Positions 20,195 through 50,346 of a DNA stretch of 64,000 bases are shown one piece after another; position 1 is the first letter of the stretch, and the number at the start of each line of letters is the position of its first letter. A program made the translations under genes and the position numbers. Under the pieces are notes generated by a model. The model searched no databases and was not told the origin of the DNA. It was given only the letters and a program-made list of their open reading frames with translations. This DNA comes from Escherichia coli (GTDB taxonomy: Bacteria > Pseudomonadota > Gammaproteobacteria > Enterobacterales > Enterobacteriaceae), in NCBI RefSeq assembly GCF_003018255.1, contig NZ_CP027440.1; one strand, written 5' to 3'.

Positions 20195-20866
20195 ATGGAT
20201 CTCGCGTCATTACGCGCTCAACAAATCGAACTGGCTTCTTCTGTGATCCGCGAGGATCGACTCGATAAAGATCCACCGGATCTGATCGCCGGAGCCGATG
20301 TCGGATTTGAGCAGGGCGGAGAAGTGACGCGAGCGGCGATGGTGCTGCTGAAATACCCCTCGCTTGAGCTGGTGGAGTATAAAGTGGCCCGCATCGCCAC
20401 CACCATGCCTTACATTCCTGGTTTTCTCTCCTTTCGTGAATATCCTGCGCTGCTGGCAGCGTGGGAGATGCTGTCACAAAAGCCGGATTTAGTGTTTGTC
20501 GATGGTCATGGGATCTCGCATCCTCGCCGTCTTGGCGTCGCCAGCCATTTTGGTTTGCTGGTGGATGTGCCGACCATTGGCGTAGCGAAAAAACGGCTCT
20601 GCGGTAAATTCGAACCGCTCTCCAGCGAACCGGGCGCGCTGGCCCCGCTGATGGATAAAGGCGAGCAGCTGGCCTGGGTCTGGCGCAGCAAAGCGCGCTG
20701 TAACCCATTGTTTATCGCTACCGGCCATCGGGTCAGCGTGGACAGCGCGCTGGCGTGGGTACAACGCTGCATGAAAGGCTATCGTCTGCCGGAGCCAACG
20801 CGCTGGGCGGACGCGGTGGCCTCGGAACGTCCGGCGTTCGTGCGCTATACAGCAAATCAGCCCTAA
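20195..20866 (+). CDS. nfi: Endonuclease V
   Basis: 223-aa product from [10 protein letters not shown]; internal start of the 225-aa ORF in the track. Confidence 0.95.
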
Positions 20867-20908
20867 TTCAGGTAAACTGCGGATAATTTCCGTATTTGAG
20901 AACTCAAC

Positions 20909-21499
20909 ATGTTACAAAACCCAATTCATCTGCGTCTGGAGCGCCTGGAAAGCTGGCAGCACGTCACTTTTATGGCCTGCTTATGCGAACGTATGTACCC
21001 CAATTACGCCGTATTCTGTCAGCAAACCGGCTTCGGCGATGGGCAGATTTACCGCCGCATTCTCGATCTCATTTGGGAAACGCTGACCGTCAAAGACGCA
21101 AAAGTAAATTTCGACAGCCAACTGGAGAAATTTGAAGAAGCGATTCCTTCAGCCGACGATTTCGATCTGTACGGCGTTTATCCGGCAATCGATGCTTGCG
21201 TGGCGTTAAGTGAACTGGTCCATTCGCGTTTAAGTGGCGAAACGCTCGAACACGCGGTGGAAGTGAGTAAGACTTCCATCACGACCGTGGCGATGCTGGA
21301 AATGACTCAGGCTGGTCGCGAAATGAGCGATGAAGAGCTCAAAGAAAACCCAGCTGTAGAGCAAGAATGGGACATTCAGTGGGAAATATTCCGACTTTTA
21401 GCTGAGTGCGAAGAACGCGATATCGAGCTGATAAAAGGCCTTAGGGCAGACCTGCGTGAGGCGGGTGAGAGCAATATTGGTATAATTTTTCAGCAATAA
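20909..21499 (+). CDS. yjaG: DUF416 family protein YjaG
   Basis: 196-aa ORF at the position of yjaG upstream of hupA. Confidence 0.9.
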   Translation: MLQNPIHLRLERLESWQHVTFMACLCERMYPNYAVFCQQTGFGDGQIYRRILDLIWETLTVKDAKVNFDSQLEKFEEAIPSADDFDLYGVYPAIDACVALSELVHSRLSGETLEHAVEVSKTSITTVAMLEMTQAGREMSDEELKENPAVEQEWDIQWEIFRLLAECEERDIELIKGLRADLREAGESNIGIIFQQ

Positions 21500-21685
21500 G
21501 ACCAGAAAACGTGATTTAACGCCTGATTTGTCGTACCTGGAGTCTTCCCTTTCGCCCCCCGTCTGGTCTACATTTGGGGGGCGAAAAAAAGTGGCTATCG
21601 GTGCGTGTATGCAGGAGAGTGCTATTCTGGCATTTCCGTCGCACTCGATGCTTAGCAAGCGATAAACACATTGTAAGGATAACTT

Positions 21686-21958
21686 ATGAACAAGACTCAA
21701 CTGATTGATGTAATTGCAGAGAAAGCAGAACTGTCCAAAACCCAGGCTAAAGCTGCTCTGGAGTCCACTCTGGCTGCAATTACTGAGTCTCTGAAAGAAG
21801 GCGATGCTGTACAACTGGTTGGTTTCGGTACCTTCAAAGTGAACCACCGCGCTGAGCGTACTGGCCGCAACCCGCAGACCGGTAAAGAAATCAAAATTGC
21901 CGCAGCTAACGTACCGGCATTTGTTTCTGGCAAGGCACTGAAAGACGCAGTTAAGTAA
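21686..21958 (+). CDS. hupA: DNA-binding protein HU-alpha
   Basis: 90-aa ORF recognised as HU-alpha ([26 protein letters not shown]...). Confidence 0.97.
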
Positions 21959-21964
21959 GATTGC

Positions 21965-22666
21965 GTGGCAGTGAACAGTTTTAACGAAGGGGTGGTTTCA
22001 CCCCTTTTGTCTTTCTGGCGTCGATCATTGATGCTGGCTGGCGCTCTGTTTCTCACTGCTTGTAGTCACAACTCTTCACTTCCTCCCTTTACCGCCAGTG
22101 GATTTGCTGAAGACCAGGGCGCGGTACGCATCTGGCGAAAAGACAGCGGCGATAATGTGCATCTTCTTGCCGTGTTTAGCCCGTGGCGCAGTGGCGATAC
22201 GACGACGCGAGAGTATCGCTGGCAGGGCGATAACCTCACGCTCATCAATATCAATGTTTACAGCAAACCCCCGGTGAATATTCGCGCGCGTTTTGACGAT
22301 CGCGGCGATCTGAGCTTTATGCAACGCGAATCCGATGGGGAAAAGCAGCAGCTTTCTAACGACCAAATCGATTTATACCGTTATCGTGCTGATCAGATCC
22401 GCCAGATTAGCGATGCCTTACGTCAGGGGAGAGTCGTGCTGCGCCAGGGGCGCTGGCATGCGATGGAGCAGACTGTGACCACCTGCGAAGGGCAAACCAT
22501 TAAACCTGATTTAGATTCGCAGGCGATAGCGCATATCGAGCGCCGCCAGAGCCGCTCTTCTGTTGATGTCAGCGTGGCATGGCTGGAAGCGCCCGAAGGT
22601 TCGCAATTACTGTTGGTGGCAAACTCTGATTTCTGTCGCTGGCAACCCAACGAGAAAACGTTCTGA
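21965..22666 (+). CDS. yjaH: Putative lipoprotein YjaH (start codon uncertain; GTG at 21965 or 21971)
   Basis: ORF with signal peptide and lipobox (LFLTAC) at the position of yjaH. Confidence 0.85.
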   Translation: MAVNSFNEGVVSPLLSFWRRSLMLAGALFLTACSHNSSLPPFTASGFAEDQGAVRIWRKDSGDNVHLLAVFSPWRSGDTTTREYRWQGDNLTLININVYSKPPVNIRARFDDRGDLSFMQRESDGEKQQLSNDQIDLYRYRADQIRQISDALRQGRVVLRQGRWHAMEQTVTTCEGQTIKPDLDSQAIAHIERRQSRSSVDVSVAWLEAPEGSQLLLVANSDFCRWQPNEKTF

Positions 22667-24701: not shown

Positions 24702-26023
24702 CGCACGATAATATCGATATTCTGGTGGTGGATGATGACATTAGCCACTGCACTATTTTGCAGGCTTTGCTGCGCGGCTGGGGCTATAACGTCGCGCTGG
24801 CGAACAGCGGGCGACAGGCGCTGGAGCAGGTGCGGGAACAGGTTTTTGATCTTGTGCTTTGCGATGTGCGAATGGCGGAGATGGACGGCATTGCCACGCT
24901 AAAAGAGATCAAAGCGCTAAATCCGGCGATTCCGGTACTGATTATGACCGCATACTCCAGCGTCGAGACGGCGGTAGAGGCACTGAAAACCGGGGCGCTG
25001 GATTATCTCATCAAGCCGCTGGATTTCGATAACCTGCAGGCGACGCTGGAAAAGGCGCTCGCACATACGCACAGTGTTGACGCTGAAACGCCTGCGGTGT
25101 CTGCCAGCCAGTTCGGTATGGTAGGTAAAAGCCCGGCGATGCAACACCTGCTCAGTGAAATCGCCCTCGTCGCGCCATCGGAAGCCACAGTGCTGATCCA
25201 CGGCGATTCCGGCACCGGTAAAGAGCTGGTCGCAAGGGCGATTCACGCCAGTAGCGCACGGAGTGAAAAACCACTGGTAACGCTCAACTGTGCGGCACTC
25301 AACGAATCCTTGCTGGAATCTGAATTGTTCGGTCACGAAAAAGGGGCGTTTACCGGAGCCGATAAACGCCGGGAAGGGCGCTTTGTTGAGGCGGACGGCG
25401 GCACGCTGTTTCTCGATGAAATTGGCGATATCTCGCCGATGATGCAGGTTCGTCTGCTGCGTGCGATTCAGGAGCGCGAAGTTCAGCGTGTCGGCAGCAA
25501 CCAGACCATCTCGGTTGATGTCCGGCTGATTGCGGCGACTCATCGCGATCTTGCCGCAGAGGTGAATGCCGGGCGTTTTCGCCAGGATCTCTACTATCGC
25601 CTGAACGTGGTGGCGATTGAAGTTCCGTCGCTGCGTCAGCGGCGGGAAGATATTCCTCTGCTGGCAAACCATTTTCTTCAGCGCTTTGCCGAGCGTAATC
25701 GTAAGGCGGTAAAAGGTTTTACGCCCCAGGCGATGGATCTGCTGATTCACTACGACTGGCCGGGAAATATTCGTGAACTGGAAAACACGGTGGAACGGGC
25801 GGTGGTGCTGCTGACCGGGGAATATATTTCCGAACGCGAGCTGCCGCTGGCGATTGCGAGTACGCCGATCCCGCTGGTACAAAGTCAGGATATTCAGCCG
25901 CTGGTGGAAGTCGAAAAAGAGGTGATTCTGGCGGCGCTGGAGAAAACGGGCGGCAACAAAACCGAAGCCGCCCGCCAGTTAGGGATCACGCGCAAAACGC
26001 TATTGGCAAAACTGTCGCGTTAG
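24698..26023 (+). CDS. zraR: Sigma-54-dependent response regulator ZraR
   Basis: 441-aa ORF with receiver domain, AAA+ Walker A (GDSGTGKE), GAFTGA motif and C-terminal HTH. Confidence 0.95.
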
Positions 26024-50295: not shown

Positions 50296-50346
50296 AAACC
50301 ACCTCATGTTGAGCGATGGCCCCGGCAGTCGTGCCGGGGCGAAGAA

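What the first reader, a model, noticed from the sequence alone, without database searches (positions are those of the whole stretch)
21553..21590. Strong GC hairpin between yjaG and hupA lacks a downstream U-tract on either strand
cgcccccc-gtctggtctacattt-ggggggcg forms an 8-bp all-G/C stem between two co-directional genes. On the plus strand it is followed by aaaaaaag, on the minus strand by aaaggg, so it is not a canonical intrinsic terminator in either direction. It may be an RNA processing/stability element at the 3' end of yjaG mRNA or part of the hupA regulatory region.
Basis: seen in the sequence. Interest (0 to 1): 0.25.

Follow-up and report, generated by a model that had tools for sequence, protein, structure and literature searches.

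The report
hupA core promoter, not a hairpin RNA
The G/C-rich inverted repeat between yjaG and hupA is real, but it sits on the long-known promoter of the HU-alpha gene, with the -10 box in its "loop" and the transcription start in its right arm, so it is an ordinary promoter and not an RNA terminator or stability hairpin.

Summary
CGCCCCCC (21553-21560) and GGGGGGCG (21576-21583) are a perfect inverted repeat with a 15-nt gap. TTT/AAA extend it to 11 bp. It has no U-tract on either strand and is far more stable than shuffled sequence.

It is not an RNA element. The window is E. coli. The hupA start site lies 105 nt before the ATG, per classical mapping and an independent re-mapping tabulated in PMC2760140. 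That is window 21581, inside the right arm. Salmonella hupA 5'-UTR cloning oligos begin at the same base (GCGAAAAAAG).

This gives the following layout:
- -35 TTCCCT at 21545-21550 (TTCACA in most other genera)
- 18-bp spacer containing the C-run
- -10 TACATT at 21569-21574, in the "loop"
- discriminator TGGGGG
- +1 G at 21581
- A7 at +4 to +10 of the mRNA

hupA mRNA therefore cannot contain the hairpin.

Published Term-seq lists no 3' end there in three conditions. Across 32 distinct orthologous sequences the arms are conserved as sequence, but pairing shows no covariation, and one central pair is broken in 12 of 32.

Verdict: a known promoter, low interest. A DNA-level role for the repeat, as a supercoiling or HU sensor, is not excluded but is unlikely.

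The parts
20909..21499 (+). yjaG (DUF416) coding sequence, the upstream co-directional gene
   Evidence: ORF list; MG1655 annotation b3999. Window coordinate = MG1655 coordinate - 4178595.
21545..21550 (+). -35 hexamer of the hupA promoter, TTCCCT in E. coli (3 of 6 to consensus)
   Evidence: Lies 18 bp upstream of TACATT. The orthologous hexamer is TTCACA (5 of 6) in Kluyvera, Enterobacter, Erwinia, Dickeya, Pantoea and others. The consensus scan calls TTCACA-18-TACATT in Kluyvera L034.
21553..21560 (+). 5' arm CGCCCCCC (11-bp arm TTTCGCCCCCC from 21550). It lies in the promoter spacer at -29 to -22.
   Evidence: Sequence. Position follows from the TSS at 21581. Individual columns are identical in about 70-100% of 32 distinct sequences; the two innermost C columns are invariant.
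21569..21574 (+). -10 hexamer TACATT (-12 to -7), inside the 15-nt 'loop'
   Evidence: Invariant in all 32 distinct orthologous sequences, together with the preceding CTGGTC. Correct distance from the mapped TSS. Called by the scan in L034.
21576..21583 (+). 3' arm GGGGGGCG (arm extends to 21586 with AAA). It comprises discriminator positions -5 to -1, the +1 G, and +2/+3.
   Evidence: Sequence; TSS mapping. G-to-A or G-to-T changes occur in many genera with no compensating change in the 5' arm.
21581..21581 (+). hupA transcription start site (MG1655 4200176), 105 nt upstream of the ATG
   Evidence: PMC2760140 table lists hupA p1 with a known TSS of -105 (Kohno 1990; Claret 1996) and its own mapping also at -105. 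Salmonella hupA 5'-UTR oligos JVO-08607 and JVO-10450 start at GCGAAAAAAGTGGCTATCG.
21584..21590 (+). A7 tract, which is +4 to +10 of the hupA mRNA and not a terminator tail
   Evidence: Follows from the TSS position. A-rich in all orthologues.
21581..21685 (+). hupA 5' UTR (105 nt), highly conserved. Its last ~30 nt are the published RaiZ/ProQ target in Salmonella.
   Evidence: 97% mean identity to E. coli across 78 loci, against 60% at yjaG third codon positions. Consensus long hairpin at +11 to +91. RaiZ pairing is described in PMC5391140.
21686..21958 (+). hupA (HU-alpha) coding sequence
   Evidence: ORF list; MG1655 b4000.

Best explanation
The inverted repeat is the sigma-70 core promoter of hupA (HU-alpha), read as DNA. 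RNA polymerase holoenzyme recognises a weak -35 (TTCCCT, 21545-21550) and the -10 TACATT (21569-21574), separated by an 18-bp spacer that contains the C-run (the 5' arm). It melts the G-rich discriminator TGGGGG and starts at G 21581, inside the 3' arm. The mRNA begins GCGAAAAAAAG, so the A7 'tail' is +4 to +10 of a 105-nt leader that is highly conserved. Because transcription starts within the right arm, hupA mRNA cannot form the hairpin. Only rare read-through RNA from yjaG could form it, and no stable 3' end is seen there. The two arms are kept as sequence elements of the promoter (spacer C-tract, G/C-rich discriminator plus start site). Their perfect complementarity in E. coli is best read as a by-product of two complementary homopolymer runs, not a selected structure. 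What is shown: the TSS position, promoter hexamers, conservation pattern, lack of covariation and absence of mapped 3' ends. What is inferred: that the complementarity itself has no function, and that the G/C-rich discriminator and 18-bp spacer tune the promoter's response to growth rate and supercoiling.
For: TSS at -105 from the ATG, both by classical mapping and by independent re-mapping; 21686 - 105 = 21581. Salmonella 5'-UTR constructs begin at the homologous G. TACATT and the preceding CTGGTC are invariant in 32 distinct sequences spanning Enterobacteriaceae, Erwiniaceae and Dickeya. The -35 is TTCACA in most genera, and the scan calls TTCACA-18-TACATT in Kluyvera. Conservation rises sharply at -29: 97.5% identity from the 5' arm to A7 and 97.3% for the rest of the UTR, against 83% and 76% for the two IGR blocks upstream and 60% at yjaG third positions. 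No Term-seq 3' end at 42000xx-42001xx on either strand in three conditions, while the hupA terminator end at 4200605 is strong. Pairing: 80.3% of cells paired against 80.1% in shuffles (191/500 reach it); covariation score reached by 121/500; the central pair is broken in 12/32. Orthologous hairpin energies range from -24.4 (E. coli, the extreme) to -7.6 kcal/mol. No Rfam family reaches its gathering score, only three sub-threshold chance matches. Single copy per genome in 5420 E. coli genomes, so not a REP-type repeat.
Against: The E. coli consensus scan did not call this promoter, because TTCCCT matches only 3 of 6. I could not read the primary mapping papers (Kohno 1990; Claret & Rouviere-Yaniv 1996), so the TSS rests on a secondary table plus oligo design. 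A strongly conserved C-run in a promoter spacer has no textbook function. C6-N15-G6 is expected only 0.01 times per window, so 'by-product' is not proven. A review lists hupA as relaxation-activated, which is the opposite of what a G/C-rich discriminator and 18-bp spacer would usually predict.
Confidence: 0.85

Rival explanations
1. RNA-level element of yjaG read-through transcripts. The hairpin would form in RNA coming from nfi-yjaG and act as a 3'-end protector after Rho-dependent termination or exonuclease trimming, or as a processing site.
For: Very stable predicted RNA hairpin of -24.4 kcal/mol, z -3.6. No intrinsic terminator between yjaG and hupA, so read-through RNA probably exists.
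Against: No 3' end at or near the hairpin in Term-seq under three conditions. No covariation, and the central pair is broken in 12/32 distinct sequences. The invariant 'loop' is explained by the -10 box. Stability drops to -8 to -12 kcal/mol in many genera.
Confidence: 0.06
2. DNA structural switch. Under high negative supercoiling the 11-bp repeat would extrude as a cruciform or hairpin, placing the -10 box in single-stranded loops and shutting the promoter. HU, which binds cruciforms with high affinity and autoregulates hupA, might stabilise it, giving supercoiling and HU homeostasis.
For: The repeat brackets the -10 element precisely and is statistically rare. DNA hairpins fold at -13.7 and -12.8 kcal/mol, z -5.8 and -4.3. 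hupA is reported as relaxation-activated, unlike hupB. The hupB upstream region has no such repeat. HU cruciform binding and hupA autoregulation are cited in PMC2634741 (Pinson 1999) and attributed to Kohno 1990 from my own knowledge.
Against: The 15-nt spacer makes extrusion costly, about +28.6 kcal/mol. The energy released is about 13.6 kcal/mol at sigma -0.03 and 27.3 at sigma -0.06 (a rough estimate without a junction term). Complementarity is not maintained in Salmonella, Klebsiella, Kluyvera, Erwinia and others, and there are no compensatory changes. There is no experimental evidence.
Confidence: 0.05
3. Dyad-symmetric operator for an unidentified dimeric regulator that overlaps the -10 box and start site, with the arms as half-sites.
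For: Both arms are conserved far beyond what a spacer usually needs. The dyad symmetry is centred on the -10 region.
Against: Half-sites made of homopolymer C/G runs 23 bp apart resemble no known E. coli operator (my own knowledge). Substitutions in one arm are not mirrored in the other. No regulator with such a site is reported in the papers I could read.
Confidence: 0.04

Closest known systems
The hupA promoter itself (hupAp; Kohno et al. 1990; Claret & Rouviere-Yaniv 1996; re-mapped in Mendoza-Vargas et al. 2009, PMC2760140)
   Same: Same locus. The TSS is 105 nt upstream of the hupA ATG, which falls at window 21581 inside the repeat.
   Different: None as to identity. I found no paper among those searchable that remarks on the inverted repeat around the -10 box.
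Intrinsic (Rho-independent) terminators
   Same: G/C-rich stem-loop in an intergenic region between co-directional genes.
   Different: No U-tract on either strand, since A-runs follow the stem in both orientations. The 15-nt loop exceeds the usual 3-8 nt. No mapped 3' end. The real hupA terminator is at 21986-22007, matching the strong Term-seq end at 4200605.
Promoters with G/C-rich discriminators (rRNA, tyrT and fis type; stringent and supercoiling-sensitive promoters)
   Same: The G/C-rich sequence between -10 and +1 (TGGGGG) and the non-optimal 18-bp spacer are features linked, from established knowledge, to ppGpp/DksA and supercoiling sensitivity.
   Different: The G at -5 would favour, not weaken, sigma region 1.2 contact (my own knowledge). 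hupA is reported as relaxation-activated, unlike fis and rRNA promoters. None of this was tested here.
Cruciform-controlled promoters (engineered bla promoter of Horwitz & Loeb 1988; exsBA cruciform of Vibrio parahaemolyticus, PMC10325908)
   Same: An inverted repeat overlapping core promoter elements, which could in principle couple promoter availability to superhelical stress.
   Different: Those repeats extrude demonstrably. Here the spacer is long, the energy estimate is unfavourable, pairing is not conserved, and nothing has been shown experimentally.

Membership tests
Sigma-70 promoter | -10 hexamer with A at position 2 and T at position 6 | tested here: met
   TACATT at 21569-21574, invariant in 32 distinct orthologous sequences.
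Sigma-70 promoter | -35 hexamer 16-18 bp upstream of the -10 | tested here: met
   TTCCCT (3/6) at an 18-bp spacing in E. coli, too weak for the scan. TTCACA (5/6) at the same place in most genera, and called by the scan in L034.
Sigma-70 promoter | Experimentally mapped start site about 7 nt downstream of the -10 | tested here: met
   From the literature only: TSS at -105 from the ATG, which is 21581. Salmonella 5'-UTR oligos begin at the same G. No new experiment was done.
Intrinsic terminator | G/C-rich hairpin | tested here: met
   8 G/C pairs, 11-12 in all, -24.4 kcal/mol.
Intrinsic terminator | U-tract immediately 3' of the stem | tested here: not met
   A7 follows on the + strand and AAAGGG on the - strand. 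No terminator-like site in the scan.
Intrinsic terminator | RNA 3' end mapped at the element | tested here: not met
   No entry at MG1655 42000xx-42001xx in the Term-seq tables of PMC7815308 for three conditions. Low yjaG expression could hide a weak end.
Structured RNA element (conserved hairpin) | Base pairing maintained by compensatory changes | tested here: not met
   Paired cells 80.3% against 80.1% in shuffles. Three isolated double changes, matched by 124/500 shuffles. Pair 20-40 broken in 12/32.
Structured RNA element (conserved hairpin) | Match to a curated RNA family | tested here: not met
   Only a chance-level miRNA hit (E = 7.7) over 21546-21590.
REP/BIME-type repeated extragenic palindrome | Multiple copies per genome with a shared consensus | tested here: not met
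   The 401-bp region around it is single copy, with a median of 1 place per genome in 5420 E. coli genomes. The motif occurs once in the window.
Cruciform-regulated promoter | Extrusion energetically accessible at physiological superhelicity | tested here: inconclusive
   Rough estimate: cost about +28.6 kcal/mol, against 13.6 (sigma -0.03) to 27.3 (sigma -0.06) kcal/mol released.
Cruciform-regulated promoter | Structure-specific nuclease or chemical sensitivity of the loop in supercoiled DNA | not testable with these tools
   Needs wet-lab probing.

The most novel reading that the evidence does not exclude
The 11-bp repeat that brackets the hupA -10 box is a DNA-level sensor. Under excess negative supercoiling, including that generated behind polymerases on the heavily transcribed hupA gene, it would extrude or breathe into hairpins. 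These would be bound by HU and would hide the -10 element. That would explain why hupA, unlike hupB, is relaxation-activated and autoregulated. In this reading E. coli has the most perfect version of a structure that is weaker in other genera.
Probability: 0.05. Interest if true: 0.55.

Novelty: already known. Interest (0 to 1): 0.12.

Why it matters
The main value is as a correction. A very stable G/C hairpin without a U-tract between two co-directional genes looks like an RNA element. Here it is the DNA of a mapped promoter, and the main transcript starts inside it. This shows that hairpin-style findings should be checked against start-site data before RNA functions are proposed.

It also gives a compact description of the hupA promoter: a weak -35 in E. 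coli, an 18-bp spacer with a C-run, the -10 TACATT, a G-run discriminator and an A-rich start of a highly conserved 105-nt leader. That description is useful to anyone studying growth-phase, ppGpp or supercoiling control of HU.

One small point remains open. Both homopolymer arms are strongly conserved although their pairing is not.

Tried and rejected
- **Terminator and promoter scan.** The scan of 20800-22200 found no terminator at the site and also missed the real promoter because the E. coli -35 is weak. The negative promoter result is a false negative.
- **Rfam.** A permissive-threshold scan gave only chance hits.
- **Literature searches.** 'hupA + yjaG' and 'hupA promoter + transcription start' returned nothing. 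One search failed on syntax and one on an unusable term.
- **Papers and supplements not held.** Oberto & Rouviere-Yaniv 1996 and Thomason 2015 are not held. Supplements of Dar & Sorek 2018, Conway 2014 and Choe 2022 are not held as text. The TERMITe supplements have no entry for this locus.
- **TATTCT as the hupA -10.** I first considered TATTCT (21623-21628, with an upstream TG) as the -10. I rejected it because its A is E. coli-specific (TTTTCT elsewhere) and it lies at about +43 of the mapped transcript.
- **Promoter upstream of the hairpin.** I considered this as a way to put the hairpin at the mRNA 5' end. I rejected it because that region is the variable part of the intergenic region and contradicts the mapped TSS.
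- **Shared motif with hupB.** I found none upstream of hupB.
- **More distant relatives.** Yersinia, Serratia and Vibrio could not be reached, because the single genome-contig scan returned only Enterobacteriaceae. Four Erwiniaceae and Dickeya loci were fetched instead.

Full report
**Observation.** The sequence is as described:
- cgcccccc at 21553-21560
- a 15-nt spacer, gtctggtctacattt, at 21561-21575
- ggggggcg at 21576-21583
- A7 at 21584-21590

TTT (21550-21552) and AAA (21584-21586) extend the perfect repeat to 11 bp. Both strands therefore read TTTCGCCCCCC...GGGGGGCGAAA. As RNA the hairpin is predicted at -24.4 kcal/mol on the + strand and -25.6 kcal/mol on the - strand, with z-scores of -3.6 and -4.0. 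C6-N10-20-G6 is expected 0.01 times in the window and occurs once. All-G/C 8-bp repeats with loops of 3-20 nt occur 3 times against 0.42 expected. There is no U-tract on either strand and no terminator-like call. The feature is real and non-random.

**Context.** The window is E. coli chromosome, and the 401-bp region is at least 99% identical in 5419 of 5420 matching complete genomes, at a single copy. Window coordinates equal MG1655 coordinates minus 4178595. The gene order is hemE-nfi-yjaG-hupA-yjaH, all on the + strand. The repeat lies 54 nt after the yjaG stop codon and 103 nt before the hupA ATG.

**What it is.** Mendoza-Vargas et al. 2009 tabulate hupA p1 with a known start at -105 (Kohno 1990; Claret & Rouviere-Yaniv 1996) and their own mapping also at -105. 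With the ATG at 21686 this is G 21581, the sixth G of the right arm. Independently, the oligos Smirnov et al. 2017 used to clone or transcribe the Salmonella hupA 5' UTR begin GCGAAAAAAGTGGCTATCG. That is the same base.

Counting back from +1 gives a standard sigma-70 layout:
- -10 TACATT at 21569-21574, inside the supposed loop
- an 18-bp spacer at 21551-21568 that contains the C-run (the left arm, -29 to -22)
- -35 TTCCCT at 21545-21550
- discriminator TGGGGG at 21575-21580
- the A7 run at +4 to +10 of the mRNA

The E. coli -35 matches only 3 of 6, which is why the scan missed the promoter. In most other genera the hexamer is TTCACA, and the same scan calls TTCACA-18-TACATT at the orthologous place in Kluyvera. 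Because transcription starts inside the right arm, hupA mRNA cannot contain the hairpin.

**Conservation.** I used 80 Enterobacteriaceae loci and four Erwiniaceae and Dickeya loci. The intergenic length is essentially fixed. Mean identity to E. coli, by region:

| Region | Identity to E. coli |
|---|---|
| yjaG stop to -37 | 83% |
| -35 hexamer region | 76% |
| 5' arm to A7 | 97.5% |
| rest of the 5' UTR | 97.3% |
| yjaG third codon positions | 60% |
| hupA third codon positions | 83% |

The identity rise begins at -29. CTGGTCTACATTTGG is invariant in 32 distinct sequences, including Erwinia, Pantoea, Paramixta and Dickeya. The loop is thus conserved as strongly as the arms, which fits a DNA recognition element and not a hairpin loop.

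**Is the pairing selected?** No evidence supports it. On the 32-sequence alignment 80.3% of cells pair, against 80.1% in column shuffles (191/500 reach the observed value). The covariation score is matched by 121/500 shuffles. The central pair is broken in 12 of 32 sequences. The changes are GGAGGG, GGGAGG, GGAAGG and GGTAGG opposite an unchanged C-run. Orthologous hairpin energies run from -24.4 kcal/mol (E. coli, the extreme) to -7.6 kcal/mol. No Rfam family matches.

**RNA 3' ends.** The Term-seq tables of Adams et al. 2021 cover LB at two densities and minimal medium. They have no entry at 42000xx or 42001xx on either strand. They do list 4200251/4200253 (hupA leader), 4200389 (internal) and a strong 4200605 (the hupA terminator at 21986-22007). 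The caveat is that a weak end from poorly expressed yjaG could fall below threshold.

**Mechanism.** Shown or directly supported: the repeat coincides with the -35-proximal spacer, -10, discriminator and +1 of the hupA promoter, and it is not a terminator and not part of hupA mRNA. Inferred from established knowledge of sigma-70 promoters: the G/C-rich discriminator and the 18-bp spacer probably set open-complex kinetics and hence growth-rate and supercoiling responsiveness. I read the complementarity of a C6 run and a G6 run as incidental.

**What remains unexplained.** A spacer C-run conserved at 70-100% per column has no textbook role. A review also lists hupA as relaxation-activated, unlike hupB, which a G/C-rich discriminator would not predict. 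This leaves room for a DNA-structure reading, in which supercoil-driven extrusion hides the -10 and is possibly stabilised by HU, a cruciform binder that autoregulates hupA. My rough estimate puts extrusion at about +28.6 kcal/mol. The energy released is about 13.6 kcal/mol at sigma -0.03 and 27.3 at sigma -0.06. Together with the non-conservation of pairing, this makes the reading unlikely, at about 5%. The hupB upstream region has no comparable repeat.

**Comparison with known systems.**
- It is the known hupA promoter.
- It fails the defining tests for an intrinsic terminator: no U-tract and no mapped 3' end.
- It fails the tests for a conserved RNA structure: no covariation and no curated family match.
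- It fails the test for a REP element, being single copy.
- It resembles cruciform-controlled promoters only in geometry.

**Verdict.** It is already known and of low interest.

Noticed in passing
window 21581-21685 (hupA 5' UTR); L083 2173-2401: The 105-nt hupA leader is about 97% identical across 78 Enterobacteriaceae loci. It folds into a long hairpin (+11 to +91) whose stems are invariant and whose apical loop (about 21622-21640) is the only variable part. Dickeya carries a 122-nt insertion exactly in that loop. No Rfam family matches. Only the last ~30 nt have a published function (RaiZ/ProQ pairing), so the extreme conservation of the rest is unexplained.
   Followed up: partly
window 21656 and 21658 (+), which are MG1655 4200251 and 4200253: Adams et al. 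Term-seq lists RNA 3' ends inside the hupA leader, 28-30 nt before the ATG, on the 3' flank of the leader hairpin. They were seen in two of the three Term-seq conditions. There is no terminator-like sequence there. They could reflect processing or premature termination.
   Followed up: no
window 21620-21628: An A at 21624, found in E. coli and its closest Escherichia relatives, creates TGcTATTCT, an extended -10-like motif inside the leader at about +40. Nearly all other genera have TTTTCT. This could be a lineage-specific secondary promoter or just loop variation.
   Followed up: no
window 21506-21526: The block AAAACGTGAyTTmAsGCCyGA directly after the yjaG stop codon (-75 to -55 from the hupA start) is conserved out to Erwinia and Dickeya, while its surroundings vary. 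It contains a CRP-like half-site (CGTGA) centred near -63. It may be the CRP site reported for hupA in 1996, which I could not verify.
   Followed up: partly
window 21545-21550 and orthologues in L007-L085: The hupA -35 hexamer is degraded in Escherichia, Salmonella and Citrobacter (TTCCCT or TTCCCA, 3 of 6). It is TTCACA (5 of 6) in Kluyvera, several Enterobacter, Erwinia, Pantoea and Dickeya. This suggests a lineage-specific weakening of the basal promoter.
   Followed up: partly
window 25947-25974 and 50319-50340: These are the two other perfect all-G/C 8-bp inverted repeats in the window: CGGGCGGC-N12-GCCGCCCG and GCCCCGGC-N6-GCCGGGGC. Neither is followed by a T-run in the sequence read.
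   Followed up: no
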